Below, piece by piece: positions 10,358-25,485 of a stretch of DNA of 34,173 bases. Location of the stretch: the UHGV virus genome UHGV-0113711; one strand, 5' to 3'. The translations under genes and the position numbers were made by a program. The notes beneath the pieces are model-generated. The model saw only the letters and a program-made list of their open reading frames with translations. It was not told where the DNA came from and searched no databases. Source of the DNA: a virus. Every line of letters begins with the position of its first letter. Within the stretch, counting starts at the first letter, position 1.

Positions 10358-10373
10358 TATTAATTATGTTATT

Positions 10374-10502: not shown

Positions 10503-10787
10503 CTTGCTAATTTATCATAGTTAACAATCAAAACAAGCACTTTTGAAAATGGCTGTATCTTATTGATTAACTAATCATGGTCAAAGCCGAACATTCCTCG
10601 TGAAGATTGTTAGAATTTGAGATCTTTACGAGCACTTAACAGACTGTCAGATTCAGTCATGGAGCAAGTTGAATGCAATGTTATCATGTATCACTTTTTC
10701 TTTTTCGTCGTTAAGATGGTTCATAAAACTTACCATTAAGTCGATTGATAACTAGTAATTACATCTGTAGGTTCTCTTGATGATTTG

Positions 10788-11528: not shown

Positions 11529-11634
11529 TATACATCGTTGCTTTATTCATTTGTTTAGATTCTGCAATTTGCTGAAATGTCTCACCAGAGTCTAAGCGAG
11601 ATTCAATTTCGAATTTGTTAGGTATAAATTTCAT
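11476..11634 (-). CDS. Small putative HTH DNA-binding protein (52 aa)
   Basis: Internal Met of track ORF 11476..11670. ETFQQIAESKQMNKATMYNACKK resembles a helix-turn-helix. Weak ribosome-binding site; overlaps the downstream 246-aa ORF by ~50 bp in another frame. Confidence 0.35.
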   Translation of the reverse strand: MKFIPNKFEIESRLDSGETFQQIAESKQMNKATMYNACKKRNIRTQPINKGK

Positions 11635-11665
11635 GGGGTTGCCTTTTTTATTGAATTGAAAAATA

Positions 11666-11683
11666 AGCACTCCGAAGAGTGCT
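11666..11683. terminator. Hairpin agcactc-cgaa-gagtgct flanked by A/T runs
   Basis: 7-bp stem with a 4-nt loop. The upstream A-run (plus strand) would be a T-run for minus-strand transcripts, so it may insulate the HTH gene from the non-coding region to its right. Confidence 0.35.
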
Positions 11684-12016
11684 TTAAACTTAAGGAATTT
11701 TTAAATGAACTAAGCTAATTGCTTATATCTTATTTTATGACGGATAAAGTCAGTAGTAAACAAACGAGAGAAAATAACGAGGAAGAAGAAACTCTCTGTG
11801 TTCATACTAATATTTATATAGTTCACCGAAAGTGTAAACAAAGTCCGAAAAATAATTTAGTGAAAAGCAGGTGCATTGATGCACATCAAAACGCATCGAT
11901 AACGCATCGATGCGACTCGGAGAAGTGCATGGACCCTAGAAAAAATCGCCCTATAAGAACAATTGGATAAAGATGAACTGGAAGGATATAGAAGCAGTAC
12001 AAAACCTGGAAAACAT

Positions 12017-12159
12017 AGCGAAGCGAGCAGATTGCGCGAAGCGCGGGCGAAGCCCTAATTGATAAACATTAGCGCGAAGCGCGACAGATAACACTATCGA
12101 ACTTGATTACTAGCTACTGATTAGATGTTTCTAGATAAAGATTATTAGCGCTTCGCGCG
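12017..12159. repeat. Cluster of GCGAAGC mini-hairpin motifs (four direct, one inverted) in an otherwise AT-rich non-coding region
   Basis: GCGAAGC at 12017..12023, 12035..12041 (within gcgcgaagcgcg), 12046..12052 (within gggcgaagccc) and 12073..12079 (within gcgcgaagcgcg). The inverted copy gcgcttcgcgcg is at 12148..12159. Confidence 0.6.
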
Positions 12160-12621
12160 TTCGCTACGCTCACAATATTATTTTTCAGATCTGGATAATA
12201 ATGATTACTGGATAACTGCATTATACTGTTCGTCTGACAATCAATAAACATAACGATCGATAATTAATTGAAATAACGTTAATGAGTTCTCCTTCGCTAT
12301 CGCTACGTCGAACGGGCAAGCCCTATCTTTGATGATAGTAATGATTGACTGCTACATCATCCCTCCTCGCTTCTCCCTGCTTCTACTGACCTAATGATAC
12401 TCCAAGTCAATTCCCTGTTATCAAGTTCACCTGATGCTTCCTGCTTCGTTATCGACCTTATTGCTTTTGACTCTACGCTTTCAGCTTCGCAGGAAGTACG
12501 CCCTGCTGTTTGCAGATCGTTCTAAAGAACTGAGTAATCAAGTTCTCAACTATTTGATTCCTTGCGCCCCAAAGATGCCTCCAGTATCTGTGGTTTACAA
12601 TCTACTCATTTGAAATTCAAT

Positions 12622-12648
12622 AAAAAAGGGAGCACTAAGCTCCCTTTT
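12622..12648. terminator. Bidirectional Rho-independent terminator
   Basis: aaaaaa-gggagc-actaa-gctccc-tttt: a 6-bp GC-rich stem (12628..12644) flanked by an A-run and a T-run, immediately 3' of the 59-codon minus-strand gene. Confidence 0.7.
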
Positions 12649-12649
12649 G

Positions 12650-12829
12650 TCATTTCAGACCAAGCACTAATGCTTGTTCAAGTTTTTTCTCAAGCAGAGT
12701 GTTTAATCCACTTTCGAAAAATTCAATCGCTTGAACGTCTGAGTCTGTTTTTAAGCGAACAGCGGCATCGTCAACTGTTAACTCTTCGGTCTTAACATCA
12801 CCGTTTTTATAAACCACATTAGCAATCAT
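12650..12829 (-). CDS. Small acidic protein (59 aa), self-contained transcription unit
   Basis: ATG at 12829 preceded by AAAGGAGA; translation MIANVVYKNGDVKTEELTVDDAAVRLKTDSDVQAIEFFESGLNTLLEKKLEQALVLGLK. Absent from the ORF track (below its apparent length cutoff). Has its own promoter and terminator. Confidence 0.6.
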   Translation of the reverse strand: MIANVVYKNGDVKTEELTVDDAAVRLKTDSDVQAIEFFESGLNTLLEKKLEQALVLGLK

Positions 12830-12850
12830 GCTTTCTCCTTTGTTGCTAAA

Positions 12851-12879
12851 AAATAATAACCGAATGATATCACTTGTTC
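12851..12879 (-). promoter_or_regulatory. Sigma70-like promoter for the 59-codon gene (-35 TTGAAC, 17-bp spacer, -10 TATTAT)
   Basis: Minus-strand reading ttgaac-aagtgatatcattcggt-tattat, ending ~10 nt before the ribosome-binding site. Confidence 0.5.
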
Positions 12880-13067
12880 AATTTTTCTTTCAATCAAATA
12901 AGTATCCGATGAATAGTCGGCTCTCTAAACTAGCAGGTATGAAATAGTTCCTTAATTCTGAACTTCCTCACTTTGCTTCCTATTTAATATTGCAATTTTA
13001 AATCTAGTGTAATTAATTTAGCTACAAACTTGCATTTATTATACATTTAAAAAATCGCCTCCATTCG

Positions 13068-13502
13068 TTAGGCATTCTCAGTTTCACTCATTTCTCCTTT
13101 AGTGCTATTCACACAGCGAAGAAACTGATCCCTCTGATACGCGGCAGTTTTGTCTGACATCTGTTTTTTGAATAACTCAAAATCCCCCTCTGTACGTTTA
13201 AAAATAATCATGCTAATCGCAGATGGTTTTTTATTAGCCGATTTGCTAGCAAGAAGTTTTTCGATGTTATCGAATCCGAAAGCCTGATTCACGATTCGTT
13301 GTGCTTCAACAGCATCGACAACTTCAACCGTATTTTCAGCTTTAACTTCTTCAACAACTGTATATTCCTCGATGTTAGCTTTAACACGACGAACAACAGA
13401 ACGAGGAACATCGTATTTTTCAGCAAGCTTACTCTCTGACATATCAGTACCAGCGTTTAATTCAGAAGCAATTCGGTTTTCAACAGTCAGTTCAGTTTTC
13501 AT
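13068..13502 (-). CDS. Putative HTH DNA-binding protein (144 aa)
   Basis: Start moved to the internal ATG 13502 (AGGAGA 6 nt upstream); track start 13559 has no ribosome-binding site. SESKLAEKYDVPRSVVRRV looks like a helix-turn-helix. Divergent from the large terminase gene. Confidence 0.6.
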   Translation of the reverse strand: MKTELTVENRIASELNAGTDMSESKLAEKYDVPRSVVRRVKANIEEYTVVEEVKAENTVEVVDAVEAQRIVNQAFGFDNIEKLLASKSANKKPSAISMIIFKRTEGDFELFKKQMSDKTAAYQRDQFLRCVNSTKGEMSETENA

Positions 13503-13647
13503 TGTCGTTCTCCTGTGTTTTGTTGGAACAGACTTTAACAGGCGGATATCCAGGTGCAAGAACTCTTAGAAATAATTTTATGGAGGTTTTCATAAATACA
13601 GACAGAGAAATGAAATCCATTTTGGGTTCATCCACTTAGGGCTGATT

Positions 13648-15531
13648 ATGAAAAACTCAAATAAACTGAAAAGTATCTTACAGAATGCAAAGCGCTTTTT
13701 AATGCCACCTCCTGACTACACTCCGTCCGAGTGGGTCGAACAGTACCTGAAATTCCCTGATGGTCCTTATACAGGGCAGCCGATGAAACTGTTTGAGTTT
13801 CAGAAAGGCATGATTGACGTCATTAAAGAACGTAAGAAGAAAATCGTCTTCGAGACTTCTGCCCAGATTGGCAAGACAACCATCTTGAACGGAATTCTGT
13901 TCTATAAGTCTGCTACTGATCCCGGTAACGCTGGTGTCTTGCAGTCAACCGGTAAAGAGACGACTCAATGGCTATCAGGCAAGATTCGCCCAATGATTGA
14001 CGAATCGGAAGAAATGCAACGAATCGTCACCGACAAGAACGACAGAAACGCAGTGAATAACACCAGTCAAATTCAGCTACGTGCTGGAGGCTTTTGGTAT
14101 TTCATGTCGCTCAATAGCCCTTCTCACTTACGCGGTAAAACTCTTCCGCTGATGTTGCTTGATGAAGTTGACGCAGTTGAAACAGACACAGAAGAAGGCA
14201 ACCCGATTATCATCGCGGAACAACGTGCTACGACGTTCGGTGAAGACGCTCGTGTTTTCATTAGCTCGACGCCTACAAGTAAATACGGTGCTATCCACAC
14301 GCAGTATGAAGCATCCGACAAGCGCAAGTATCATGTTCCCTGTCCTACATGTGGTCATAAGCACGAACTGACGTGGGAGAATATCAAATTCGACTGGGTA
14401 AAAATCGATGGTAAATCATTACCTGATCCTAACTCTGCCAGAATTGAATGTCCTGAATGTCATCACGCTTTCTCTGAAGGCGACCGAGCACGAGCAATTA
14501 AACAAGGTGAATGGATTATTCATCAACCTGAAAGTCGAATTGCTGGATTCCACGTAAGTCGTTTATACAGCCCAATGAGTTCTATCAAATCAGTTGTTGA
14601 AGACTATAAGCAAGCATGGCAAACGTTCAGCTTGTCAACGTTTTATAACACTGTTCTTGGTCTACCGTTTGATGATTTAAACGAAGACATTGAGGTTAGT
14701 AAATTAGAAACACTCAAGACGAATATCGGCATCAGCAATATACCAGAAGACACGTTGTTTTTAACCGCTGGGGTTGACCAACAGCAAGACCGTTTAGAAG
14801 TAACCTTGATGGGTCACAACGAACGAACCGTTTATATTCTTGCACATCGTAGCTTTATGACAATGAACGCTGAGGTTATCGATTCCCCTGCTTATAAAGA
14901 ACTTCTTGCATACGTTAAAGCACCGTTCAGAACAGCTTTGGGAAGAAAGGTTCCTTTAGCGTGGGTGAACGTCGATAGCTCAAACGGTCGAGCAACTAAA
15001 ACAATCTATCGTTTCTGCTCTCAGTGGACAAACCTGAAAGCAATTAAAGGTGCCAGCTCTGTTGATGCCCCTTATGTTCCAACGAAAATCACGAAAACCG
15101 GTGGTTATGAACTTTATATGATTGGTGTAAACCAAGGAAAAAACTTAGTTCGTGAACTGCTAAACAGAAGCGTGAAATCTGGAAATACACCAGTCAGAGT
15201 CGAAATCTCTGATGATGTTCCAGATGATTACTGCGAACAGCTTATGTCCGAAGAATTAAAACGCTCTGGTAATACTGTTAGATGGGTTATTAAACAAGGC
15301 GGTGTTCGTAACGAAGGTCTTGACTGCTTTAACTACGGTTATTGCGCGCGTCTGCAAGTTCTAGAGAAAATCAAATTTCACGAGTGGAGGAAACTCGCTG
15401 CTAAATCTGATATTGAAATGCCAGAAGAACAAAACGAAACAAATTCTCCTGTTATTCAAACTCATGAACCTCGTCGAAACATTATCAAACGAAACAGACC
15501 AGTTAATAAGCCTCGTGGTTTCGGATTATAA
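13648..15531 (+). CDS. Terminase large subunit, lambda GpA family
   Basis: N-terminal PPPDYTPSEWVEQYLKFPDG parallels the lambda A N-terminus. The ATPase region IVFETSAQIGKTT and the zinc-finger-like HVPCPTCGHKHELTWENIKFD...ECPECHH parallel lambda A VACPHCGEEQYLKFGD. Length 627 aa. Confidence 0.85.
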   Translation: MKNSNKLKSILQNAKRFLMPPPDYTPSEWVEQYLKFPDGPYTGQPMKLFEFQKGMIDVIKERKKKIVFETSAQIGKTTILNGILFYKSATDPGNAGVLQSTGKETTQWLSGKIRPMIDESEEMQRIVTDKNDRNAVNNTSQIQLRAGGFWYFMSLNSPSHLRGKTLPLMLLDEVDAVETDTEEGNPIIIAEQRATTFGEDARVFISSTPTSKYGAIHTQYEASDKRKYHVPCPTCGHKHELTWENIKFDWVKIDGKSLPDPNSARIECPECHHAFSEGDRARAIKQGEWIIHQPESRIAGFHVSRLYSPMSSIKSVVEDYKQAWQTFSLSTFYNTVLGLPFDDLNEDIEVSKLETLKTNIGISNIPEDTLFLTAGVDQQQDRLEVTLMGHNERTVYILAHRSFMTMNAEVIDSPAYKELLAYVKAPFRTALGRKVPLAWVNVDSSNGRATKTIYRFCSQWTNLKAIKGASSVDAPYVPTKITKTGGYELYMIGVNQGKNLVRELLNRSVKSGNTPVRVEISDDVPDDYCEQLMSEELKRSGNTVRWVIKQGGVRNEGLDCFNYGYCARLQVLEKIKFHEWRKLAAKSDIEMPEEQNETNSPVIQTHEPRRNIIKRNRPVNKPRGFGL

Positions 15532-15551
15532 ATATAAGAAAGGAGAACTCA

Positions 15552-16046
15552 ATGCAAAAATCAAATTCAGAAATTTACATCGGTGAAAAACTCGCTGTTT
15601 ATAATCCTGAAGGTGCAACAGTCTCCATAGGCTCAACTGAAACTAAATTGTTTTCTCAAACTGATTGTCCAGCGAATATCTCGGTGGACACATCAGATTT
15701 TATCGAAGGAACTTTTTCTGTTGTTGTTCTCTATGAAGGTGCGCTTATCAGTAACAGCATTATCAAAGTGAAATCACCATTCGTTTCAAAAACGAAAAGA
15801 GAACAACTCAGAGAAATGATTAACGATATCGATACAGTTATTCAGTATCGTCTGACAAGTAACGAAGAAGCTATTCAACAAATGAGTATTAACGGTAAAT
15901 CATTCGTTTATGAAACGCTTGATTCGCTGCTTATGGCTCGAAAACGACTTTTAGCTAACTTAGCAAATCTGATTAAGTCAGAACAAATGGCAAACGGTAA
16001 ATCTCCGATTGTTACTATTAAAGCGAGGTTCACGAATCCATCATGA
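15552..16046 (+). CDS. Head-tail joining protein, gpW-like C-terminal domain with N-terminal extension
   Basis: Position between large terminase and portal as in lambda. C-terminal INGKSFVYETLDSLLMARKRL resembles gpW [24 protein letters not shown]. Stop overlaps the portal start (ATGA). Confidence 0.5.
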   Translation: MQKSNSEIYIGEKLAVYNPEGATVSIGSTETKLFSQTDCPANISVDTSDFIEGTFSVVVLYEGALISNSIIKVKSPFVSKTKREQLREMINDIDTVIQYRLTSNEEAIQQMSINGKSFVYETLDSLLMARKRLLANLANLIKSEQMANGKSPIVTIKARFTNPS

Positions 16047-17593
16047 GTATTAGAGATTTTTTCACATTTAAAAAAGCAGAACCGAAAACACGTAAACAGA
16101 AACAGAAACTGGTAATTGATAACGAGCAAGCATATGGCTCACAGTTACAGCGTATTCTTGGTCCTCGAACTGACCGTTTAGATGGCGACTTTCAAGAGAA
16201 CCTGATTACGACTGCAACGATTAATAACGAGATTCGAACTTATGCCGATGGCATTCGTAATATGTCTCGAACTCTTTCGATTAATACACCAGTTGGTAAA
16301 CGTGCTGTTCAATATCAAGTTGATAACGTTATCGGTGAAGGTATTAACCCACAATTGCGTATTCTGGGAACAAACGGAAAGCCAAGCAAGAAACTGAACT
16401 CTATGATTATGGACCAGTTCAGCTATTGGTCAAGTTCAGCAAAACGTTTCAGTAAAAATGAAAGAATGAACTGGCGCAGATTTCAAGAACTCGTTGAACG
16501 TTCAAGATTTGTTGACGGCGAGGTTTTTATTCGTATTCACGAATCTGATACTGAATTTAAGCTTGAAATTATCGAAGCTTCACGCTGTAAATTTGGCGAC
16601 AGAGAAACCTCCGACAACGGTTATGTTCTTGATGGTATCGAATATAATAACGATGATGTTCCAGTTCGTTACTGGTTTAACACAATAAGCAAAGCAACAC
16701 AGACTTCATCTGGTAAATCTGAAGGTATCGACGCTGAAAATATTATTCACTATTACAGAGAATTGTTCCCTGATCAACGCAGAGGCATTCCTGAATGTGT
16801 AGCGAATATTGATGTTATGAACCAATATGATGCTTTCACAAAAGCAACGTTGATTCAGAAACGCGCCGCAGCAAGCTCTATGGGTTTCATCACTCAAGAC
16901 AAAGACGGTCAAGATAATATCGAAATTGATAGCGATAACGAAGGCATTGAAGAATCTCCTGATGTTATTCAAAACTTTGAATCAGGGACAATTCATAAAC
17001 TTCCTGCTGGTTACGATATAAAGCAGTTTAGCTCTACTCAGGGCGGTGACGACTTTATGAACTTCACGAATCGTCTGGAAGACCTGCTTGCTATGGGTTA
17101 CGGTTTTTACAAACAAGGTTGGAAAGGTGACACAGCAAATATTAACTATTCTGCTGCCCGCTTCGGTGATCTTGCACAACGCGTAATGTTTAAATCAGTT
17201 CAGCGTAATATTAAAGAACAGGTTTTTGATGTTATTTTTGAACGTTGGTTACAATGGTCAATTATCAGAGAAACCGTTAATTTGAAAATGACAACTATTC
17301 CTTCAGTTCTTCGTCAGACTGTTTGGACATATCCTCAATGGCAAAGTATCGACCCAATTAAAGATACTCAGAAGGATATTTTTGATGTTGAAAACGGATT
17401 CAAATCTGCTTCTGATATTATTATTGCTCGCGGTGAAGACCCGGATATTGTATTTGCTCAGGTTGAACAAGAAAGAACTCGTTATGTTCCGAAATACGAT
17501 AATCAAATTAAAGTTGCTGCTGCACCTGCTGCATTAACGGCTGATGCTCAAGTGGAAGTTGCTGAAATTAATTCGGATAACTCGGTGGAATAA
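16043..17593 (+). CDS. Portal protein (lambda gpB family)
   Basis: 516 aa, immediately downstream of terminase and the gpW-like gene; size and position fit a lambda-type portal. Family assignment is from synteny and general resemblance, not a verified alignment. Confidence 0.75.
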   Translation: MSIRDFFTFKKAEPKTRKQKQKLVIDNEQAYGSQLQRILGPRTDRLDGDFQENLITTATINNEIRTYADGIRNMSRTLSINTPVGKRAVQYQVDNVIGEGINPQLRILGTNGKPSKKLNSMIMDQFSYWSSSAKRFSKNERMNWRRFQELVERSRFVDGEVFIRIHESDTEFKLEIIEASRCKFGDRETSDNGYVLDGIEYNNDDVPVRYWFNTISKATQTSSGKSEGIDAENIIHYYRELFPDQRRGIPECVANIDVMNQYDAFTKATLIQKRAAASSMGFITQDKDGQDNIEIDSDNEGIEESPDVIQNFESGTIHKLPAGYDIKQFSSTQGGDDFMNFTNRLEDLLAMGYGFYKQGWKGDTANINYSAARFGDLAQRVMFKSVQRNIKEQVFDVIFERWLQWSIIRETVNLKMTTIPSVLRQTVWTYPQWQSIDPIKDTQKDIFDVENGFKSASDIIIARGEDPDIVFAQVEQERTRYVPKYDNQIKVAAAPAALTADAQVEVAEINSDNSVE

Positions 17594-17652
17594 CACTAAA
17601 TACATTCAGAAAAACAAAGAGCGTCGAAAGACGCTCCAACAGAGGACTGGTA

Positions 17653-19557
17653 ATGCTAAAACTTAAGCGCGATTACACAGTTCAGGGTATTGATTCTGTT
17701 GATGGTGTTTTTGAAATTGCGTTCAGTTCTGAAACTCCTGTTGAAAGACAGATTCAGGATGAATACGGTCAAAACATTACTGTTAATGAAATTCTCGTTC
17801 ATGACGGCTCACATAACGCTGACTTGACCCGAATTAATAACGGTGCTGCTTTGCTGTTTAACCATGATTTTGATAAACACTTGGGAATCGTTATTCCTGA
17901 TTCTGTTCGAATCGATGAAGACAAAATAGGACGAGCAAAAGTCCAATTCAGTCAACACGGTGAATTAGCTAAAGAAATCGGTGCAAAAGTTCAAGAAGGA
18001 ACAATTAGTAAAATCTCTTTCGGATATGACATTAATGAATATCACTTAGAAGGCGACAATCTTATTGTTACGAAATGGGCACCATATGAAATTTCTTTCG
18101 TCACTGTTCCTGCTGACGATAAAGTCGGTTTGGGAAGACTACTAAATACAGATACAACAAACAAACTTAACAAAGGTACTCGAATGAAACGTATTGATGA
18201 AATGACTAAAGATGAACTGGCAGAAATGACTATCGATGAAATTGAAATGCTGTCCGATGAAGATCGTGCAAAGCGTGAAGAAATTCTGGAAGAAGTAGTC
18301 GTTGAAAATGAAAACGCTGGTGATTCTGCTGTTGAAAAAACTGATGACGCTCCTGCTGCTGTTCCTGCTGGTGACGAACTGACAGAAGAAGAACGCGAAG
18401 AAGAAGCGGAAGAAATTCTTGAAATCGCACAACGCTACAAAGTAGCACAGAAAGACGTTGCAAGCGCTATCGCTAAAGGCATGACCGCACGTCAATTCAA
18501 ACGCTCTATTAAACCTAATAAATCTGCAACGGTGATTCGCAACATGACTAAAGATACTAAACAAACTCTGGAAAATAAATTCGACCTTGGCGATGCTGTT
18601 CGCTCTATGATGAATGGTAAAGCTGTTCGCGGTGCTGCTGCTGAATATACTCAAGAAATGTCCCGTAAGCGTCTGATGCGCGGTGCTAACGTTTCTCAAG
18701 GTATCTATATGCCAGTTAGTGCTCTGCAAGGCAAACGCGCTATTAACACTGTATCAACTGTTTCCGCAGTACAAGAAACTGTTCAGCGTTATGATTCATT
18801 CGTTGAAATGCTGTTGAAAGACACTGTTGCTGATAAGCTGGGAGTTAACTTCCTGACTGGTCTGACTACTCCGATTTCTGTTCCTAAGCAGACAAAATCA
18901 AGTGTTGATGCATTCGGTTTCGTTGATGAAAACGGTGAATCTCCAGAAGGCGAAAGCAAATTCGAAAACATTCAGTTTATGCCTAAGACATTTACTGGTG
19001 GTAACCCGATTTCTCGTCAAGCTCTGTTGACTCTGCCTAATCTGGGTGCGTTCATTTCTGACCATATCGTGAATTTCTCACGCGCTAAACTGGAAGGTCT
19101 GATGTTCGGTTCTATTACCGACGCAAAAGCTCCTCAGTCTATCGTTGCTCAGTTAGTAGCAAAACAGATGGGAATGACCTACAAAGAATTCGTTGTTGAA
19201 GCTGCTAAAGCTAAAGGCGACGGCGTAGCAATGGACAAGTTCAAATATTTGATGGCTGCTGCTCTTGAAGGTGATTTGAAAACCACTCTGCGTGACGCTG
19301 GTGTTGCTGGTTATATCATCGACGACCTGAACAAACTGGGCGGACATGATGTTATCGGTTCCGGTCTTGTTAAAGAAGGTCAGGTTATCTCTGGTGACTT
19401 CTCTGCTGTAACCGTAGCTGAGTGGGAAGGTCTTGCTCTTGACCTAGACGACACAACTTACCGTAACAAAGGCGCTATCGTTCCTCGCGTTTGGGCTGAT
19501 ATCGATTGGAAAGTTTGTGCTGATGATCGTCTGTTCCTGCACGAAAAAAAAGCCTAA
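17653..19557 (+). CDS. Prohead protease (HK97/S78-like) - acidic linker - major capsid protein fusion
   Basis: N-terminal ~160 aa carry HK97-type prohead protease features (LLFNHDFDKHLGIV...ISFGYD...YEISFVTVPADDKV). A strongly acidic, coiled-coil-like segment follows (EEEREEEAEEILE). The C-terminal ~350 aa is capsid-like. A strong terminator follows. Confidence 0.7.
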   Translation: MLKLKRDYTVQGIDSVDGVFEIAFSSETPVERQIQDEYGQNITVNEILVHDGSHNADLTRINNGAALLFNHDFDKHLGIVIPDSVRIDEDKIGRAKVQFSQHGELAKEIGAKVQEGTISKISFGYDINEYHLEGDNLIVTKWAPYEISFVTVPADDKVGLGRLLNTDTTNKLNKGTRMKRIDEMTKDELAEMTIDEIEMLSDEDRAKREEILEEVVVENENAGDSAVEKTDDAPAAVPAGDELTEEEREEEAEEILEIAQRYKVAQKDVASAIAKGMTARQFKRSIKPNKSATVIRNMTKDTKQTLENKFDLGDAVRSMMNGKAVRGAAAEYTQEMSRKRLMRGANVSQGIYMPVSALQGKRAINTVSTVSAVQETVQRYDSFVEMLLKDTVADKLGVNFLTGLTTPISVPKQTKSSVDAFGFVDENGESPEGESKFENIQFMPKTFTGGNPISRQALLTLPNLGAFISDHIVNFSRAKLEGLMFGSITDAKAPQSIVAQLVAKQMGMTYKEFVVEAAKAKGDGVAMDKFKYLMAAALEGDLKTTLRDAGVAGYIIDDLNKLGGHDVIGSGLVKEGQVISGDFSAVTVAEWEGLALDLDDTTYRNKGAIVPRVWADIDWKVCADDRLFLHEKKA

Positions 19558-19596
19558 GAAAAGCAAAAGCGAAAGCTGAAACTGCTGAATAATCAG

Positions 19597-19622
19597 AGGA
19601 CTCCTTCGGGAGTCCTTTTTTC
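19597..19622 (+). terminator. Rho-independent terminator after the capsid gene
   Basis: aggactcc-ttcg-ggagtcct stem-loop followed by a T-run. Confidence 0.75.
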
Positions 19623-19656
19623 GTTTCTGGACTAAATATAATAAAAAGGAGACAAC

Positions 19657-19953
19657 ATGATTTTTCCATATTCAGAAAAACAAAAACAGTCTTTCTTAAC
19701 TCGTTTCGGACAGAAAATCAAAATTAACGATTCTGATGAACTCGGTATTGTTGAAATTGAGATTAACAACGATAACGGACAAGTAAGCGAGACAATCTAT
19801 ATAACCGCTGATATCAATAAAGTTAAGCAAGAAGATGAAGTTCTATTAAACGAGATTCTGTATACCATTGCGTATCTTGTTAATGATGGTTCAGGACTTG
19901 CTAATTGCTATCTGGCATTTAAAGGCGAACAGGAGACATCATTCTATGACTAA
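19657..19953 (+). CDS. Hypothetical structural-module protein (98 aa)
   Basis: ORF following the capsid terminator; stop overlaps the next gene's start (ATGACTAA). Confidence 0.6.
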   Translation: MIFPYSEKQKQSFLTRFGQKIKINDSDELGIVEIEINNDNGQVSETIYITADINKVKQEDEVLLNEILYTIAYLVNDGSGLANCYLAFKGEQETSFYD

Positions 19954-20344
19954 TCTGCCACGTTTAGGAATTAAACGCGCTCTGGAAGAAATAATCGTTA
20001 AAGAACTTAATCTGAAATACGTCAAAAACGCTTTCACAACTGGTGTTAAAGAACCTGTTCAAGTAATGATTCCAGGAATGACAGAAGAATATACGCGAAT
20101 CGGTTTGCAATCGAAACTTGCAAGTGTTCTTAGTATCACGATTGATATTTTCTCAGAGAAAAGCGAAACCGGCGTTCACAAAGCCGTTTACGACTTAATT
20201 TCTATTAATGCTAATCATGAAAAACTTATCCCATTTAAAATCGATAAGATTTATCCAAGTTCAAGTTTCACTGATTATGATAGTGAAGCATCAAATGGTC
20301 ATGTTAGCGCACAAATAATTTTAACTTTCGAATACTTAATGTGA
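19946..20344 (+). CDS. Hypothetical structural-module protein (132 aa)
   Basis: Start set at the ATG 19946 (AGGAGA 9 nt upstream) rather than track start 19868, which would overlap the previous gene by 86 bp. Confidence 0.6.
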   Translation: MTNLPRLGIKRALEEIIVKELNLKYVKNAFTTGVKEPVQVMIPGMTEEYTRIGLQSKLASVLSITIDIFSEKSETGVHKAVYDLISINANHEKLIPFKIDKIYPSSSFTDYDSEASNGHVSAQIILTFEYLM

Positions 20345-20351
20345 GACTAAA

Positions 20352-21377
20352 ATGACAAACGATATTTTTGTAGGAAATAACGTCAGAGTTTCAGTTAATC
20401 CGCTAATCGTTGAAATCCCAGGATATAACGACCCAGGTTATGTAAGCACTGATAAACTGGCTGCATTCCCTGTTATCGGATTTAGAAAAGAAGTTCAGAC
20501 ACTAGAAGATTACAGAACCGATTTTACAACGAAACTTTCAGGTGACGTAACAATTAATGACACTTCAATAAGCTTATTTGAAGACAGTTCTGACCCAGTT
20601 TATCAGTTGCTTGATGAAGCTCTTATGGAAAAGAAACTCCTTAGATTCAGAAGTCTTTATGTTATCGATGGAGAAACAAAGAAAGATAATGATGCTGGTC
20701 TTTATCATATTTTTAATGCTTATGTAACTAAGAAAGAAACAACAGGCTCCGAAAACTCAGTCGTTACAACAACTTTTAATCTTTCTCCTGATGGTCAGTT
20801 GTTTACAGGTTTTGCTGAATTCTCGGTTCCGTTAAACGTTGGCGATTATGGTATTGGTGCTGGTACAGAAGAAATCGCAGGTGTTAAAGACTTAGGATTA
20901 TTAACTGGTAACAGATGTGTAACAGTCGATGCAACAAACAGCGATAACCCTTATAACTCTGGCACGTCTGCTATGGCTATTCAGCATCCTGATGGTCAAG
21001 GTTGGGAGCTTATTGGTTCGTCAGTCGGTAATCCAAGCATCAGAATCAGAAACAAACAACAAAGCGGTGAAACTGTTACTGAATCTCCGTGGGTCAAAGT
21101 CTATACAGAACTTGAACGTCCAACTCCTGAAGATATTAATGCTTTGCCTATTACTGGTGGAGAACTCAAAGGATCTTTGACTATTCAGGAATATCTGAAC
21201 GTTCGTAAAAAGATTTCTGCGCCACAAGGTGAAATCTTGGCTCTAAATAGTAATGAAATTAACTCAACTTCTGTCAAGGTCAAAGGCAAAGAAGTCTATT
21301 CTCCAAGTAATAAACCAACGCCATTAGAGATTAATTGTGTAGCGTTAGGAGAAACCTTAGACGCAGGAGTATTTTAA
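20352..21377 (+). CDS. Hypothetical virion structural protein (341 aa)
   Basis: Long ORF in the structural block between head genes and the tail fibre; function not assignable by eye. Confidence 0.6.
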   Translation: MTNDIFVGNNVRVSVNPLIVEIPGYNDPGYVSTDKLAAFPVIGFRKEVQTLEDYRTDFTTKLSGDVTINDTSISLFEDSSDPVYQLLDEALMEKKLLRFRSLYVIDGETKKDNDAGLYHIFNAYVTKKETTGSENSVVTTTFNLSPDGQLFTGFAEFSVPLNVGDYGIGAGTEEIAGVKDLGLLTGNRCVTVDATNSDNPYNSGTSAMAIQHPDGQGWELIGSSVGNPSIRIRNKQQSGETVTESPWVKVYTELERPTPEDINALPITGGELKGSLTIQEYLNVRKKISAPQGEILALNSNEINSTSVKVKGKEVYSPSNKPTPLEINCVALGETLDAGVF

Positions 21378-21389
21378 CGGATAAAGAAA

Positions 21390-24300
21390 ATGGCAAATAA
21401 TAAAGTTAAACATTATAGAACAGACGTCGCCGGAAGAAAGCCAGAAGCGAAAAACATGCTTGATGGTGAAATCGCTATTAACTTAGCCGATAAAAAGATT
21501 TTCACTAAATTCGGTGACGCTGTTATTAACATCGGTAATGGTGCTGACGCTGTTGTTGAAGGCGGTCAGACCTTTACTGGTAAAATTAAAGCAAGTGATA
21601 TTGAATCCGATTCTAATCTGACTTTAAAAAATCTTGATAAAAGCGATATTGTTTTTGCTGATGAACACGACAAAGCAAAAGCGCGTATTAGTTCTCCTGC
21701 TCAAGCAGACGCTAAAGGTGAACTTCGTGTTACGGTAGCGAAAGGAAAAGCTACAGGAGAGAGTTCTGACTTTGTGCTTAACGGTAATGGTCAGTTATCT
21801 TTACCTGCTGCTCCTGTTGCTCCTGAAAGCGCTACGCGTAAAGATTACGTTGATTCTGAAATCAGTAAAGTCCAAACAGGCTCAAGTGCTGACCTGACGA
21901 AACTCGAACAGAAAGTTGATGCTAACGACGCTGCTATTAACACTCGCGTTGATAATCTGAATTCAAAAGTTGATCAGAACGACGCTGCTATTAATACGAA
22001 AGTTGATGCGAATAAAGCTGATGCTGACGAAAAGATTAAAGCTGTTAACGACCGTCTGACTGTTGATAATCAGACTCTGACTAATATGATTAACGAAAAA
22101 GTTAGTAAGTCTGGTGATACTATGACAGGCAATTTGACAGTTCCTTCTGTTCATGCTGCTGGTGATGTATACGCTGGAACTTTGAAAGTTACATCTGCTG
22201 GTAATAACGGTGGTGTTCTGAGTATTGAAAACCACGGCAGAACTTCAAAGACTATTCATCAAATTGCATACGCAACGGATACGGATGATCGACTGTTATT
22301 TCGTCGTGATGCTAACGAAGGAACCGACGCATTAGATCTAATGACCATGGCTTGGGGAAAGACAGGCAGAGGAATGTCAATTGATATTTCAGGTCAAGCT
22401 AGAATCACTGATACAGTAACAACTCCTTTAATGTCCGTTGCAAGCAACTTTGCCGTTGGAAATTCACTGGGTTTAAACTCTATCGCTATTGGTGATTCCG
22501 ACACTGGTTTTAAATGGAGACAAGACGGTTGGTTAAACTTCTATTCTAATAACGTTGTAACAGCTTCTATCGCAGGATCTGAAAACTACTTTAATAGAAA
22601 AACTTATTTCCGTTTCAGAAGTGATGATGGCGATTCGAATCTGTTGGCTCCTGAAGGTCAGGCATTAATTCAAATCGATACGACAACAGATGGGAATAAC
22701 GTTGGTGATTCCACGACTTATTTCGGATTAGTTAATGGTGGAAAATACAATCATTATCTGAGAGGTAAAGGCAGAACGTATATTGATACTCATGAAGGTC
22801 TCGGCGTTGCTGGTCCTGCAAGTTTCTATCAGACGATTTTTAACAACAAAGGATACGGAAGTTACGATAGTGAATCATTGCCAACTTGGACAGATGCTGC
22901 GTATCAATCGAATCATTTAAGAAAAGTAAGAGCTAAAAACGGCGGAGCAATTTTTCATGAAGCTGTTGTTGCCGAACACGGTGATTCTAGAGCTAGTCAG
23001 TCTATAAGCTGGTATCACGGTAATGGTCCTGAAAACTTCATCGCATCGATGCAGATTGACGGAACAATTAACGCAACTCGTTTTAATACGTCTGCTGAAT
23101 ATGAAGCGATTAACATCAAAACGAAAAATCGCGAAGCTGCTTATATTAGAGGCACAGACGGTGACAAAACTTCATGGTTATTTGGTCGTTTGAATCCCGG
23201 TGATAACAGGTTAATTGCTCGTTCTACTATCGACCAAGACGGAAGTTCTACTGTTGACTTGGAGATGGATTCAGGAAGCAAATACTTCGGTGTTAATGTT
23301 GGTGGGAATAGAATTGCAAGATTTCATGAAAAAAATATTATTATCGACGGAAGAAAGTGGGCTGCTGACAATAGTCACGCTTGGGCAGACCAATGGAATC
23401 AACTTCCTCCTGTTGCTATAGAATTTGGTGCTGTTCCTTCTGGAAGTGATTATTATCCTGGATATGCATTACAAAGTAGCTCTGTTGGTTTTGGTTATTC
23501 AACTCGATTCGAACTCGGTATGATTCGTGCTCCTGCTGATCAATTCGGTAGAGGTATTCTTCGTGTGGGAACATATGAAGAAGGTGCGTCGAAAACGATG
23601 GCGAATTACGAGTTCAGTATTGACGGAAGATTCGCAGTTCCTGGCAAAATTAATACTCCTTATCTAGAAACTTCTAGAATTACAAGTTTTGCTGTAGGTA
23701 ATACGAATAACGGTCTAGGCGGTAATTCAATTGCCTTCGGTGATCACGATACTGGTATTCGTCAGCAGGTTGACGGTATTCTTGAATTTCATGCTAATGG
23801 ATTTCATTCGATGTCTATCGATTCTGCTCAAGTTTGGTTAAACAGACATTTGAATATTTCTGCTCCTAACCACGGTCGTGGTGTTTATGTCAACGGTAAT
23901 CGAGAAGGTGCCAGCAATTCGATGATTCAAGGTCAAGTCGAAGGATGGGCTGATTGGGGTTCATGGCGTGAACGTCCTGCGGGAATGATTGTTGAAGCTT
24001 CTGCTCGTTCGAAATGCATTAATATCTGGAAACATGTTCACTGGGGCACAGAATATAGTGCTGCAATGGACGTTTATAATCCCGACGGTGCAGGTCCTGA
24101 AGCCCAATTACACGTTGGTGGTGCAAACTATCATTTCAGCGGTAACGGAACAGCAAACGCCATTTCTTGGGTTAGCACTTCTGATAAACGTCTGAAATCA
24201 AATTTTGAAGAAATTGAAAACGCGGTTGATAAAGTCGAGAAACTTACTGGTTACGTATACGATAAGAAATCTGATTTAGTCGAAACTGAATATTCATTCG

Positions 24301-24473
24301 AAGTTCGTGAAGCAGGTATTATTGCTCAAGAACTGAAAGAAGTATTACCAGAAGCTGTTAGTTCTTTCGGACCTGACGAAATTCTTGGTGTTAACTCTGC
24401 TGCTGTAAACGCGTTGCTGGTTAATGCTATCAAGGAATTAAGTGCTCGCGTTAAAGAACTTGAAGCTAAATAA
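21390..24473 (+). CDS. Tail fibre protein (P2 gpH / T4 gp37-like shaft) with C-terminal intramolecular chaperone (peptidase S74-type) domain
   Basis: RKDYVDSEISKV, SKSGDTMTGNLTV and repeated GDSDTGF/GDHDTGI blocks parallel P2 H (TQDYVDDKI, QKNGDTLSGGL, GDNDTGFKQNGDG). The C-terminus ISWVSTSDKRLKSNFEEIENAVDKVEKLTGYVYDKK...AGIIAQELKEVLPEAV matches the self-cleaving chaperone domain found at the end of many phage fibres and endosialidases. Confidence 0.85.
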   Translation: MANNKVKHYRTDVAGRKPEAKNMLDGEIAINLADKKIFTKFGDAVINIGNGADAVVEGGQTFTGKIKASDIESDSNLTLKNLDKSDIVFADEHDKAKARISSPAQADAKGELRVTVAKGKATGESSDFVLNGNGQLSLPAAPVAPESATRKDYVDSEISKVQTGSSADLTKLEQKVDANDAAINTRVDNLNSKVDQNDAAINTKVDANKADADEKIKAVNDRLTVDNQTLTNMINEKVSKSGDTMTGNLTVPSVHAAGDVYAGTLKVTSAGNNGGVLSIENHGRTSKTIHQIAYATDTDDRLLFRRDANEGTDALDLMTMAWGKTGRGMSIDISGQARITDTVTTPLMSVASNFAVGNSLGLNSIAIGDSDTGFKWRQDGWLNFYSNNVVTASIAGSENYFNRKTYFRFRSDDGDSNLLAPEGQALIQIDTTTDGNNVGDSTTYFGLVNGGKYNHYLRGKGRTYIDTHEGLGVAGPASFYQTIFNNKGYGSYDSESLPTWTDAAYQSNHLRKVRAKNGGAIFHEAVVAEHGDSRASQSISWYHGNGPENFIASMQIDGTINATRFNTSAEYEAINIKTKNREAAYIRGTDGDKTSWLFGRLNPGDNRLIARSTIDQDGSSTVDLEMDSGSKYFGVNVGGNRIARFHEKNIIIDGRKWAADNSHAWADQWNQLPPVAIEFGAVPSGSDYYPGYALQSSSVGFGYSTRFELGMIRAPADQFGRGILRVGTYEEGASKTMANYEFSIDGRFAVPGKINTPYLETSRITSFAVGNTNNGLGGNSIAFGDHDTGIRQQVDGILEFHANGFHSMSIDSAQVWLNRHLNISAPNHGRGVYVNGNREGASNSMIQGQVEGWADWGSWRERPAGMIVEASARSKCINIWKHVHWGTEYSAAMDVYNPDGAGPEAQLHVGGANYHFSGNGTANAISWVSTSDKRLKSNFEEIENAVDKVEKLTGYVYDKKSDLVETEYSFEVREAGIIAQELKEVLPEAVSSFGPDEILGVNSAAVNALLVNAIKELSARVKELEAK

Positions 24474-24476
24474 CAA

Positions 24477-24497
24477 AAAGGGGAGAAATCCCCTTTG
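24477..24497 (+). terminator. Putative Rho-independent terminator after the tail-fibre gene
   Basis: aaagggg-agaaat-ccccttt hairpin; short T-tract. Confidence 0.45.
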
Positions 24498-24534
24498 CTA
24501 AATAAACTATATTAACTCAAATAGGAAATTAAAA

Positions 24535-25011
24535 ATGGCAGACAAATTTGATATTTTTGCTGGCTCTTACGTCAGTGTGTTCTATAACTCAGAAATTGCA
24601 AACACCGATCTGAATTCAGAAAAGTTTGTTGAAATTCCTGAAACTGGTGCATTCCCTTCTACGGGTATTGAACGCGAAGTTATTACAGCTCCTAACTTCT
24701 CTCACAAATACTCCCGTAAACTGGTTGGTCGTGGCTCTGTTCCTGATATCGACTTGACCGTTAACTATATTCCAGAAAGCGTTCATGATGTTCTGATTAA
24801 GCTTGCGGAAGATGGTAAACGTGGTCAGTTTAAAATCGTTTATTGGATTGATGCTACTAAAAAACTGGGTGTTGCAAAAGTTTATAACGGCTTCTTGTCA
24901 AGCGCTGTTCATAATGGCGGTGAATCAGAAGTTCAAGGTCTGACAATGACACTGAGTGTTGATGGTGGTCCTGTTGTTTCTGGTGTTGTTGATTTGACAT
25001 CAAGTGATTAA
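24535..25011 (+). CDS. Putative major tail (tube) protein (158 aa)
   Basis: Size, beta-rich composition and the strong terminator immediately after it suggest an abundant structural protein. QFKIVYWIDATKKLGVAKVYNGFLSS...LTMTLSVDG is reminiscent of tail-tube proteins. Assignment is tentative. Confidence 0.4.
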   Translation: MADKFDIFAGSYVSVFYNSEIANTDLNSEKFVEIPETGAFPSTGIEREVITAPNFSHKYSRKLVGRGSVPDIDLTVNYIPESVHDVLIKLAEDGKRGQFKIVYWIDATKKLGVAKVYNGFLSSAVHNGGESEVQGLTMTLSVDGGPVVSGVVDLTSSD

Positions 25012-25017
25012 TTAAAA

Positions 25018-25041
25018 AGACTCCGCAAGGGGTCTTTTTTT
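25018..25041 (+). terminator. Rho-independent terminator
   Basis: agactcc-gcaa-ggggtct stem-loop followed by ttttttt. Confidence 0.75.
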
Positions 25042-25068
25042 GGCTCTAAATAAAGTCAGAGGTGAAAC

Positions 25069-25485
25069 ATGTTTAAATTTCAGGCTGACTTATCAAAATT
25101 ACTTAATCGCTATATCAATCAGCAACACGTTTTCGGTCAAAACGACTGTAATATCCTTGTTGCTGAATATATCGACCTTGTTTGTGCTACTGAATACACA
25201 GACAAATTAAAAGACAAATACACGAGTATTCCTGAAGGACTGAAGATCTGTAAAGACCTAACAGGATTTAATAACGTTCTCGAAGCGTGTGAAACGCATC
25301 TTGAGAAATCAGAAACTATAGAAACAGGCTCGGTTATCTTAATTAAGAAAAAGCATAAAAACCGAATCTATTACGTTGCGTCTATCGTTTTTAATAATAG
25401 AGCATTAGTTGAACATGAAAATAAATATCAACTGATAAACGTCAACGATTTTAATTTTGAATTAATTTTTAACAGGAGAAAATAA
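25069..25485 (+). CDS. Hypothetical protein (138 aa), possible papain-like (NlpC/P60-type) fold
   Basis: NDCNILVAEY and later His residues loosely resemble the Cys/His motifs of NlpC/P60 tail-assembly proteins. Weak. Confidence 0.5.
   Translation: MFKFQADLSKLLNRYINQQHVFGQNDCNILVAEYIDLVCATEYTDKLKDKYTSIPEGLKICKDLTGFNNVLEACETHLEKSETIETGSVILIKKKHKNRIYYVASIVFNNRALVEHENKYQLINVNDFNFELIFNRRK

What the first reader, a model, noticed from the sequence alone, without database searches (positions are those of the whole stretch)
17653..19557. Prohead protease, acidic linker and major capsid protein encoded as one 634-aa ORF
The N-terminal third looks like an HK97-type prohead protease, the middle is highly acidic and coiled-coil-like (a scaffold or delta-domain analogue), and the C-terminal ~350 aa is capsid-like. 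A single open frame implies either a self-processing polyprotein or nested internal starts. This is less common than separate genes and is relevant to the assembly mechanism.
Basis: partly seen in the sequence, partly recalled or inferred. Interest (0 to 1): 0.4.

Follow-up and report, generated by a model that had tools for sequence, protein, structure and literature searches.

The report
Fused protease–scaffold–capsid phage gene
This prophage gene really does encode the head-maturation protease, an internal scaffold and the major capsid protein as one 634-residue chain, an arrangement already common in phages; sequence statistics suggest a second in-frame start also makes a protease-less copy.

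Summary
The ORF (17653-19557, +, 634 aa) is real. Its three-part make-up is confirmed:
- an S78 (HK97 gp4-type) prohead serine protease at residues 1-165, with His71 and Ser122 aligned to the HK97 catalytic pair;
- a helical scaffold-like middle at 178-369, acidic and then basic;
- an HK97-fold capsid domain at about 370-634.

It is not a sequencing artefact. Thousands of homologues from many bacterial phyla and from isolated phages (R4C, VP882, phiHAP-1, Persinger) have the same single ORF. [quoted passage not shown]

In phage R4C the virion capsid chain (PDB 8GTA) is exactly the last 268 of 629 residues. The N-terminal about 370 residues here are therefore most likely cut away.

Across 76 sequence clusters, the first in-frame ATG after the protease domain has a Shine-Dalgarno site almost as strong as true starts. 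The site is kept by synonymous codon choice and lies in unusually unstructured mRNA. In this window it is Met178 (ATG 18184), with a weak AAAGG but very open RNA.

The likely outcome is two products, 70 kDa with protease and 50 kDa without, resembling lambda C/Nu3. This is inferred, not shown. Overall it is an ordinary family member of modest interest.

The parts
17642..17646 (+). Shine-Dalgarno site (GAGGA) of the full-length start
   Evidence: Duplex energy with the 16S tail is -5.8 kcal/mol, 6 nt upstream of ATG 17653.
17653..19557 (+). Single ORF of 634 aa (69.8 kDa): protease-scaffold-capsid precursor
   Evidence: End-to-end match to PHROG 617 (residues 3-621 on positions 8-612 of 626, E 1e-78). 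RefSeq WP_000916040.1, named 'HK97 family phage prohead protease'.
17653..18147 (+). Prohead serine protease domain (residues 1-165), family S78
   Evidence: Pfam PF04586, E 1.4e-10. BLASTP to HK97 gp4, E 2e-4. AlphaFold2 predicts a beta-rich domain at 1-150.
17863..17865 (+). Codon of His71, the putative catalytic histidine
   Evidence: Aligns with His65 of HK97 gp4. Invariant in the 17- and 36-sequence alignments.
18016..18018 (+). Codon of Ser122, the putative catalytic serine
   Evidence: Aligns with Ser114 of HK97 gp4. Invariant in the alignments.
18148..18183 (+). Short disordered linker (residues 166-177) between protease and scaffold
   Evidence: pLDDT below 50 for residues 152-177. 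Variable in length and sequence among homologues.
18172..18176 (+). Weak internal Shine-Dalgarno-like element (AAAGG), 7 nt upstream of ATG 18184
   Evidence: Duplex energy -3.9 kcal/mol. AAAGG, AAAGGA or AAGGA is kept at the same place in close relatives although the linker varies.
18184..18186 (+). In-frame ATG of Met178, candidate internal start giving a 457-aa (50.1 kDa) scaffold-capsid protein
   Evidence: It is the first ATG after the protease domain. Local RNA MFE for -30..+30 is only -2.0 kcal/mol here, against -13.6 at Met1.
18184..18759 (+). Scaffold / delta-domain-like region (residues 178-369): acidic 181-260, basic 261-369
   Evidence: Charge profile. Predicted helices at 186-224, 245-285 and 303-342. 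Invariant E254, I255, A272, F282, R317, A330, G344 and P354. The corresponding part is absent from the R4C virion chain.
18760..19554 (+). HK97-fold major capsid domain (residues about 370-634, 28.7 kDa), the expected mature capsid protein
   Evidence: phmmer to PDB 8GTA, E 2e-17, residues 379-619. Pfam PF05065. Foldseek: 8gta_A E 5e-17, TM 0.72; HK97 1ohg TM 0.69. The N-terminal boundary is set by homology only and is an upper limit.
13648..15531 (+). Context: terminase large subunit (lambda gpA type)
   Evidence: Pfam GpA_ATPase and GpA_nuclease.
15552..16046 (+). Context: head-tail joining (gpW-position) protein
   Evidence: PHROG 5774, E 2e-10.
16043..17593 (+). Context: portal protein (lambda family), directly upstream of the fused gene
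   Evidence: Pfam Phage_portal_2, E 2e-60. No separate protease or scaffold gene lies between the portal gene and the fused ORF.

Best explanation
The ORF is the head-assembly gene of a lambda/HK97-like prophage of Escherichia coli.

SHOWN BY SEQUENCE. One reading frame joins three parts:
- an S78 prohead serine protease (residues 1-165, catalytic His71 and Ser122);
- a helical scaffold (delta-domain-like) region (178-369);
- an HK97-fold major capsid domain (about 370-634).

INFERRED FROM HOMOLOGUES. The chain assembles through its capsid domain, which places the scaffold and the tethered protease inside the procapsid. The protease then removes itself and the scaffold. This leaves a mature capsid protein of about 29-31 kDa that starts at or a little before residue 370.

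INFERRED FROM FAMILY-WIDE STATISTICS. The same mRNA is also read from an internal in-frame start just after the protease domain (Met178, ATG 18184). That start would give a 50-kDa scaffold-capsid subunit without protease. A procapsid would then be built from a mixture of the two products, and the ratio of the two initiation events would set the protease dose. This is the logic of lambda C/Nu3 and herpesvirus UL26/UL26.5, extended here through the capsid protein.
For: DOMAINS. Pfam S78 and Phage_capsid both score above their cut-offs. PHROG 617 matches full length and PHROG 4523 is 'major head and protease protein'. HK97 gp4 His65 and Ser114 align with His71 and Ser122, which are invariant in the alignments. 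The AlphaFold2 model shows three modules. Foldseek gives the HK97 fold, with R4C 8gta_A as top hit.

REAL FUSION. The word-indexed search found 2293 homologues; the best 120 are all 626-681 aa and carry both domains. The cluster-representative search found 4658 clusters at E<=1e-3, and nearly all of the best 150 are 570-690 aa. An uninterrupted frame is present in 164 loci from many phyla. Isolated phages have the same gene after the same terminase, gpW-like and portal genes.

PROCESSING. The R4C gene encodes 629 aa, but the virion chain 8GTA is exactly its last 268 residues.

INTERNAL START, tested in 76 clusters at 70% identity:
- The first linker ATG has an SD duplex energy of median -5.4 kcal/mol, with 58% at or below -5. 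Other internal ATGs have median -2.2 (13%) and non-start linker codons -2.1 (15%); p about 1e-15.
- True N-terminal starts have median -6.0, with 70% at or below -5.
- With the peptide kept and synonymous codons resampled, the observed mean is -4.92 against -3.59 (p 5e-6). Control ATGs show no effect (p 0.79).
- RNA around the linker ATG is open: median MFE -6.25 against -14.4 for other internal ATGs (p 1e-21). The value at window Met178 is -2.0.
- R4C (-9.5), VP882 (-7.1) and DCP80 (-6.2) each have an internal site at least as strong as their first start.
- Close relatives keep AAAGG, AAAGGA or AAGGA 7-10 nt before ATG-AAA even though the linker varies.
Against: - No protein data exist for this element or, as far as I could find, for any family member that would show two translation products.
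- The internal SD in this window is weak (AAAGG, -3.9 kcal/mol) and weaker than the one at Met1 (-5.8).
- One enterobacterial clade (L007 group with 18 members, L008, L111, L114) has no ATG, or no ATG with an SD, in the linker. Full-length-only expression can therefore apparently suffice.
- The internal SD plus ATG could be a relic of an ancestral separate capsid gene.
- The clusters are phylogenetically related, so the p-values overstate independence.
- The mature N-terminus is inferred from the sequence deposited for 8GTA, which may reflect the modelled residues rather than a measured terminus.
- My volume estimate does not exclude 415 full-length chains per T=7 shell: about 17 MDa, or 41-62% of the interior for the 20-23 nm inner radii that I assumed.
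Confidence: 0.55

Rival explanations
1. Obligate polyprotein. Only the 634-residue chain is made, every capsid subunit brings its own protease and scaffold, and all are removed by self-cleavage. The internal SD-like sequence and Met178 are non-functional here, either by chance or as a relic of an ancestral gene boundary.
For: - The window's internal SD is weak (-3.9) compared with Met1 (-5.8).
- A related clade lacks any usable internal start in the linker, so full-length-only genes exist.
- The interior volume allows 415 copies of the 41-kDa cargo at about 41-62% occupancy (my estimate).
Against: - The internal ATG carries an SD nearly as strong as true starts across 76 clusters.
- The SD is maintained at synonymous sites.
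- It sits in exceptionally open RNA, including in this window.
- A relic would be expected to decay at 25-30% protein identity.
Confidence: 0.38
2. Artefactual fusion. A sequencing or assembly error, or a recent frameshift or stop-loss mutation, joined a separate protease gene to a separate capsid gene. On this view the ORF is a pseudogene-like accident of this strain.
For: None was found. The only hint is that the copy of this island in E. coli MS 115-1 is partly decayed, with an IS3 in the terminase gene.
Against: - The same single ORF occurs at 99.9% identity in two complete genomes.
- It also occurs at 25-90% identity in thousands of proteins and 164 loci, including isolated, plaque-forming phages.
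- PHROG 617 is a full-length profile of the fused form.
Confidence: 0.01
3. Dead protease domain. The N-terminal domain has lost catalysis and serves only as extra scaffold or as a packaged internal protein. Maturation would rely on another protease or on none.
For: No activity data exist. No solved structure matches the domain by sequence.
Against: - His71 and Ser122 are invariant across alignments that go down to 25% identity and align with the HK97 gp4 catalytic pair.
- No other protease gene was recognised among the head-module ORFs that were scanned (13648-21377).
- The R4C virion chain lacks the N-terminal 361 residues, so cleavage does occur in the family.
Confidence: 0.04

Closest known systems
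Dinoroseobacter phage vB_DshS-R4C gp6 (629 aa; capsid structure PDB 8GTA) and other full-length homologues: Vibrio phage VP882 gp07, Halomonas phage phiHAP-1, Pseudomonas phage Persinger, E. coli phages ECO1230-10 and ep3 (PHROG 617)
   Same: - Same three-part single ORF and the same gene order (gpA-type terminase, gpW-like, lambda-type portal, fused gene).
- End-to-end alignment at 25-28% identity.
- An in-frame SD plus ATG directly after the protease domain.
[quoted passage not shown]
   Different: - Only 25-30% identical.
- The linker here is strongly acidic and longer.
- The internal SD is weaker here.
- The tails differ: R4C is a siphovirus with an RcGTA-like tail and VP882 is a myovirus.
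HK97 gp4 (protease) plus gp5 (delta domain fused to capsid protein)
   Same: - Same protease family with the same catalytic His and Ser.
- Same capsid fold.
- The scaffold is an N-terminal extension of the capsid protein that the protease removes (PMC10275583).
   Different: - In HK97 the protease is a separate gene that ends 2 nt before gene 5. Here there is no stop codon, so the protease is covalently joined.
- The scaffold region here is about 190 aa, against 103 in HK97.
- Whether the HK97 Lys169-Asn356 crosslink exists here was not tested.
Nested in-frame protease/scaffold genes: lambda C/Nu3, herpes simplex UL26/UL26.5, Haloferax virus HFTV1 gp17/gp17.5
   Same: A long product carries the protease. 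A shorter, 3'-coterminal product from an internal in-frame start lacks it. Both share the C-terminal part that targets them to the shell (bioRxiv 10.64898/2026.09.13.751334). The sequence signals found here fit that scheme.
   Different: - In those systems the shared part is only the scaffold, and the capsid protein is a separate gene. Here the shared part would be scaffold plus capsid protein.
- The lambda protease belongs to a different family (S49, from general knowledge).
- Two products are demonstrated there and only inferred here.
[quoted passage not shown] Microbacterium cluster EE)
   Same: It is a recognised annotation class for a single gene encoding protease and capsid protein, said to be 'common in small-genome siphoviruses' (PMC9671004).
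   Different: Sequence relatedness to this ORF was not tested here. The hosts and genome sizes differ.

Membership tests
Peptidase S78 (HK97 gp4-type prohead serine protease, Pfam PF04586) | Profile match above the curated threshold | tested here: met
   41.9 bits against a cut-off of 21, E 1.4e-10, residues 63-156.
Peptidase S78 (HK97 gp4-type prohead serine protease, Pfam PF04586) | Catalytic His and Ser at the positions of HK97 gp4 His65 and Ser114 | tested here: met
   His71 and Ser122 align with them and are invariant in the 17- and 36-sequence alignments. The identity of the HK97 catalytic residues is from my own knowledge of the HK97 literature.
Peptidase S78 (HK97 gp4-type prohead serine protease, Pfam PF04586) | Herpesvirus-protease-like fold | not tested
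   The model shows a beta-rich domain at 1-150. The fold search of the whole model was dominated by capsid hits, and no solved structure matched by sequence.
Peptidase S78 (HK97 gp4-type prohead serine protease, Pfam PF04586) | Proteolytic activity on scaffold and capsid precursor | not testable with these tools
   Needs biochemistry or mutants.
HK97-fold major capsid protein (Pfam PF05065) | Profile match above the curated threshold | tested here: met
   28.5 bits against 24.2, residues 380-623. phmmer to 8GTA, E 2e-17.
HK97-fold major capsid protein (Pfam PF05065) | Predicted structure superposes on solved HK97-fold capsid proteins | tested here: met
   Foldseek: 8gta_A E 5e-17, TM(target) 0.72; HK97 1ohg_A TM 0.69; RcGTA 6tb9 TM 0.65. 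The model pLDDT is mostly 75-90 over residues 440-634.
HK97-fold major capsid protein (Pfam PF05065) | N-terminal scaffold part absent from the mature virion | tested here: inconclusive
   True for the homologue R4C, where the 8GTA chain equals residues 362-629 of 629. There are no data for this element.
HK97-fold major capsid protein (Pfam PF05065) | HK97-type isopeptide crosslink residues (Lys169, Asn356, Glu363) | not tested
   Identity to HK97 gp5 is only about 13%, and the alignment is too uncertain to call single residues.
Fused protease-scaffold-capsid genes (PHROG 617 / PHROG 4523) | End-to-end match to the fused profile | tested here: met
   Residues 3-621 on profile positions 8-612 of 626, E 1.1e-78.
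Fused protease-scaffold-capsid genes (PHROG 617 / PHROG 4523) | Uninterrupted single frame conserved in relatives | tested here: met
   stop-to-stop frames contain both the protease anchor and at least 400 further residues in 159 of 164 loci.
Fused protease-scaffold-capsid genes (PHROG 617 / PHROG 4523) | Placed directly after the portal gene, with no separate protease or scaffold gene | tested here: met
   Window. The same holds in DCP80, R4C and VP882.
Nested in-frame protease/scaffold gene pairs (lambda C/Nu3 type) | In-frame start codon just downstream of the protease domain | tested here: met
   Met178 lies 12 residues after the end of the protease anchor. An ATG is present in the linker of 74 of 76 clusters, although chance alone would give one often.
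Nested in-frame protease/scaffold gene pairs (lambda C/Nu3 type) | Ribosome-binding site and accessible RNA at the internal start | tested here: inconclusive
   Clearly met for the family. In this window the SD is weak (-3.9), but the RNA is very open (MFE -2.0) and the motif is conserved in the clade.
Nested in-frame protease/scaffold gene pairs (lambda C/Nu3 type) | Two protein products observed | not testable with these tools
   Needs start-site profiling, western blot or mass spectrometry.

The most novel reading that the evidence does not exclude
The fused protease-scaffold-capsid genes of this large family, this ORF included, are dual-initiation genes. A conserved internal ribosome-binding site right after the protease domain makes a protease-less scaffold-capsid subunit alongside the full-length chain. 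The protease copy number per procapsid would then be set by the ratio of two translation starts on one mRNA. This would extend the lambda C/Nu3 and herpesvirus UL26/UL26.5 principle through the capsid protein itself. I found no paper describing it in the library searched.
Probability: 0.55. Interest if true: 0.45.

Novelty: new member of a known kind. Interest (0 to 1): 0.3.

Why it matters
The gene itself is an ordinary member of an already catalogued family, so it changes little.

Its modest value has three parts:
- It shows that automated names for one and the same protein type ('HK97 family phage prohead protease' against 'major capsid protein') each hide two thirds of the protein.
- It gives a homology-based prediction of the mature capsid protein (about residues 370-634) that can be checked by mass spectrometry.
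- The family-wide signal of a conserved internal start offers a simple, testable answer to how a virus that fuses its protease to its capsid protein avoids loading about 415 protease copies into each shell. If confirmed, many 'major capsid protein' annotations would need a second, nested coding sequence.

Tried and rejected
- Sequencing error or artificial fusion: rejected by conservation of the single frame.
- Inactive protease: unlikely, because His71 and Ser122 are invariant.
- Other internal starts in the window: Met277, 298, 319/320, 336 and 342 have no SD. Met353 (-3.9) and Met484 (-6.1) lie in structured RNA and inside conserved protein segments, so I treat them as chance.
- Alternative GTG or TTG starts in the clade without a linker ATG: none convincing.
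- Sequence search of the protease domain alone against solved structures: only a chance hit to a pollen allergen, E 1.1.
- Rfam scan of the window (no match at gathering score) and a direct-repeat scan (only short, probably chance families). Both were side checks on the island, not on the ORF, and showed nothing of note.
- The R4C structure paper and a marine phage proteomics paper, searched for a stated mature N-terminus or any mention of the protease: nothing found.
- Papers describing an internal start in fused protease-capsid genes: none found in six searches. The library lacks most subscription-journal papers, so absence is weak evidence.
- Interior-volume argument against 415 full-length chains: not decisive, at 41-62% occupancy.
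Full report
OBSERVATION

A GAGGA Shine-Dalgarno (SD) site lies 6 nt upstream. The upstream genes are a lambda gpA-type large terminase (13648-15531), a gpW-position head-tail joining protein (15552-16046) and a lambda-family portal (16043-17593). No separate protease or scaffold gene lies between the portal gene and this ORF.

DOMAIN ARCHITECTURE

- Pfam finds Peptidase_S78 at residues 63-156 (E 1.4e-10) and Phage_capsid at 380-623 (E 1.3e-6). Both are above the curated cut-offs.
- PHROG 617 ('major head protein', a 626-position profile) matches from residue 3 to 621 with E 1e-78. PHROG 4523 is literally 'major head and protease protein'.
- BLASTP against HK97 gp4 aligns His71 with His65 and Ser122 with Ser114. 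That these two are the catalytic residues of gp4 is my own knowledge of the HK97 literature. Both residues are invariant in alignments that reach 25% identity.
- Residues 181-260 carry 32 acidic and 6 basic residues (pI 4.05). Residues 261-369 are basic (pI 10.9).
- An AlphaFold2 model (mean pLDDT 70.6) shows a beta-rich domain at 1-150 and disorder at 152-177. Three helical segments follow (186-224, 245-285, 303-342), separated by disordered stretches. Residues 360-383 are disordered, and a well-predicted C-terminal domain follows.
- Foldseek places that C-terminal domain in the HK97 fold. The top hit is the R4C capsid 8gta_A (E 5e-17, TM 0.72), followed by HK97, RcGTA and D3.

NOT AN ARTEFACT, AND NOT RARE

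- The word-indexed search found 2293 homologues. The best 120 are all 626-681 aa and carry both Pfam domains.
- The exhaustive search of cluster representatives found 4658 clusters at E<=1e-3. Nearly all of the best 150 are 570-690 aa.
- Scans of genomes and viral contigs returned 160 loci from Enterobacterales, Neisseria, Rhodobacterales, Acinetobacter, Burkholderia, Planctomycetota, Verrucomicrobiota and others. The uninterrupted frame is present throughout.
- Isolated phages with the same gene include R4C, RcCronus, VP882, phiHAP-1, Persinger, Arya, ECO1230-10 and ep3. R4C and VP882, and also the DCP80 record, were checked and have the same gene order.
- The literature already names the class. 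[quoted passage not shown] - This exact protein is RefSeq WP_000916040.1, annotated as 'HK97 family phage prohead protease'.

PROCESSING

R4C gene 006 encodes 629 residues. The capsid chain deposited for the R4C virion, 8GTA, is 268 residues and coincides exactly with residues 362-629. The window protein aligns with R4C gp6 from end to end (E 4e-45), and the equivalent position is residue 370.

I therefore infer that the protease and scaffold parts (about 41 kDa) are removed, leaving a capsid protein of about 29-31 kDa. The true cleavage site may lie somewhat upstream of residue 370. An invariant G344...P354 motif precedes the disordered 360-383 stretch. Neither the R4C paper nor a later proteomics paper states a measured N-terminus.

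THE INTERNAL-START QUESTION

In the window the first in-frame ATG after the protease domain is Met178 (18184). It is preceded by AAAGG at a 7-nt spacing, with a weak duplex energy of -3.9 kcal/mol. In DCP80, R4C and VP882 the corresponding ATG has an SD at least as strong as that of the annotated start (-6.2, -9.5 and -7.1).

I then tested the whole set of loci, reduced to 76 clusters at 70% identity.

1. SD strength. The first ATG in the linker has a median SD energy of -5.4, with 58% at or below -5. The 962 other internal ATGs have a median of -2.2 (13%), and non-start codons of the same linkers -2.1 (15%). Mann-Whitney p is about 1e-15.
2. Positive control. The N-terminal starts of the same genes have a median of -6.0, with 70% at or below -5.
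3. Synonymous sites. I kept each upstream peptide and resampled synonymous codons from the gene's own usage. The observed mean is -4.92 against -3.59 (Wilcoxon p 5e-6). Control ATGs show no difference (p 0.79). Selection therefore acts on the nucleotides, not only on the peptide.
4. RNA openness. The 60 nt around the linker ATG fold weakly, with a median of -6.25 kcal/mol. Other internal ATGs give -14.4 (p 1e-21) and other linker positions -11.7 (p 6e-11). Window Met178 has -2.0, against -13.6 at Met1.
5. Conservation in the clade. Close relatives of the window keep AAAGG, AAAGGA or AAGGA 7-10 nt before ATG-AAA although the surrounding linker varies in length and sequence.

Together these points argue that most genes of this family carry a functional internal start. 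That start would produce a scaffold-capsid protein without protease, 457 aa and 50.1 kDa in this window.

Caveats:
- No protein evidence exists.
- The clusters are related by descent, so the p-values overstate independence.
- The window's own SD is weak.
- One enterobacterial clade (L007 group, L008, L111, L114) has no usable start in the linker, so full-length-only genes apparently work.
- My estimate of interior occupancy does not exclude an all-full-length shell. It gives 415 x 41 kDa = 17 MDa, or 41-62% of the interior for the 20-23 nm inner radii that I assumed.

MOST LIKELY MECHANISM

1. Two products are translated from one mRNA: a 70-kDa protease-scaffold-capsid chain and a 50-kDa scaffold-capsid chain.
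2. They co-assemble through the capsid domain around the portal, with the scaffold helices and the tethered protease inside.
3. The protease (His71, Ser122) then cleaves itself and the scaffold away. The fragments leave, and the shell of about 29-kDa subunits expands on DNA packaging.

The domain assignments and the conservation are shown. The processing is inferred from R4C. The dual initiation is inferred from sequence statistics.

COMPARISON WITH KNOWN SYSTEMS

- The gene is a member of the fused protease-capsid family (PHROG 617).
- It works like HK97 gp4 plus gp5, with the stop codon between them absent. In HK97 the two genes are 2 nt apart, and the delta domain is the scaffold (PMC10275583).
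- The inferred dual initiation parallels lambda C/Nu3, herpes simplex UL26/UL26.5 and the recently reported HFTV1 gp17/gp17.5 (bioRxiv 10.64898/2026.09.13.751334). The difference is that the shared C-terminal part here includes the capsid protein.
- A plausible origin is loss of the stop codon of an HK97-like protease gene with retention of the capsid gene's own start. This is inference.

SOURCE OF THE WINDOW

The window is an island of about 34 kb in the E. coli chromosome between ybiT and ldtB. It is 99.9% identical to strains MS 115-1 and 2021CK-01361 and is found in only 2-3 of 5426 complete E. coli genomes.

VERDICT

The feature is an uncharacterised member of a known and common kind. The only element that may be new is the family-wide evidence for a nested start, which is testable. 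Interest 0.3.

Noticed in passing
window 8588-10357 (- strand): A 589-aa reverse transcriptase matches PADLOC RT-Toprim type I-C retron models (E 7e-216), and RefSeq names it a 'retron Ec67 family RNA-directed DNA polymerase/endonuclease'. No msr/msd RNA was found by Rfam at gathering score. From memory, not verified: retron-Ec67 was first described on a prophage-like element of about 34 kb at 19 min of the E. coli map, which would fit this island.
   Followed up: partly
window 6326-7222 (+), with the small ORF 6027-6326 upstream: A 298-aa TIR-domain protein matches Pfam CAP12-PCTIR_TIR (E 5e-38) and the PADLOC candidate defence family PDC-S35 (E 1e-70). It sits near the retron, so the prophage seems to carry a small defence cluster.
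   Followed up: partly
window 1-3020 and the whole window: The window is an island between ybiT (1-1475, - strand) and ldtB of E. coli, bounded on the left by a large serine recombinase gene (1515-3020). It occurs in only 2-3 of 5426 complete E. coli genomes. In strain MS 115-1 the terminase gene is split by an IS3, whereas in the window it is intact. No replication genes were recognised among the ORFs I scanned.
   Followed up: partly
window 20352-34173 and 3945-5293 (- strand): The tail genes are in an unusual order. A 341-aa protein with a major-tail-like N-terminus and a fibre-like C-terminus (20352-21377) and a 1027-aa tail fibre (21390-24473) come before the 158-aa major tail protein (24535-25011). 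A 1229-aa J-like tip protein (25485-29174) comes before the chaperone-like gene and the 799-aa last ORF. An endonuclease VII gene (29501-29977) sits inside the tail module. A DUF2163 hub-like gene lies on the opposite strand at the far left (3945-4592).
   Followed up: no
L007, L008, L111, L114 and their clusters (for example L101-L122): An enterobacterial clade of the fused family (about 33-37% identical to the query) has a very acidic linker with no ATG, GTG or TTG carrying an SD for 70-100 codons after the protease domain. These genes may be expressed as full-length chains only, a natural contrast to the rest of the family.
   Followed up: partly
P0175 (893 aa), P0238 (879 aa), P0164 (818 aa), P0268 (812 aa); L157 and L162 (about 500 residues of open frame before the protease anchor): Some family members have 140-500 extra residues N-terminal to the protease domain, which suggests a further fusion with an upstream head gene or a mis-called start.
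   Followed up: no
L001 = PQ671644.1 positions 1-15786 (Escherichia phage DCP80): This record is classified as a 141-kb T4-like phage (Straboviridae). Yet its first 16 kb encode a gpA-type terminase, a lambda-type portal and a fused protease-capsid gene 64% identical to the window's. This looks like a chimeric assembly or a contaminating contig.
   Followed up: no
window 18142-18729 (- strand): A 195-aa antisense ORF overlaps the acidic linker. Its Phe/Ser-rich translation looks like the mirror image of the GAA-rich coding strand and is probably not a gene.
   Followed up: no
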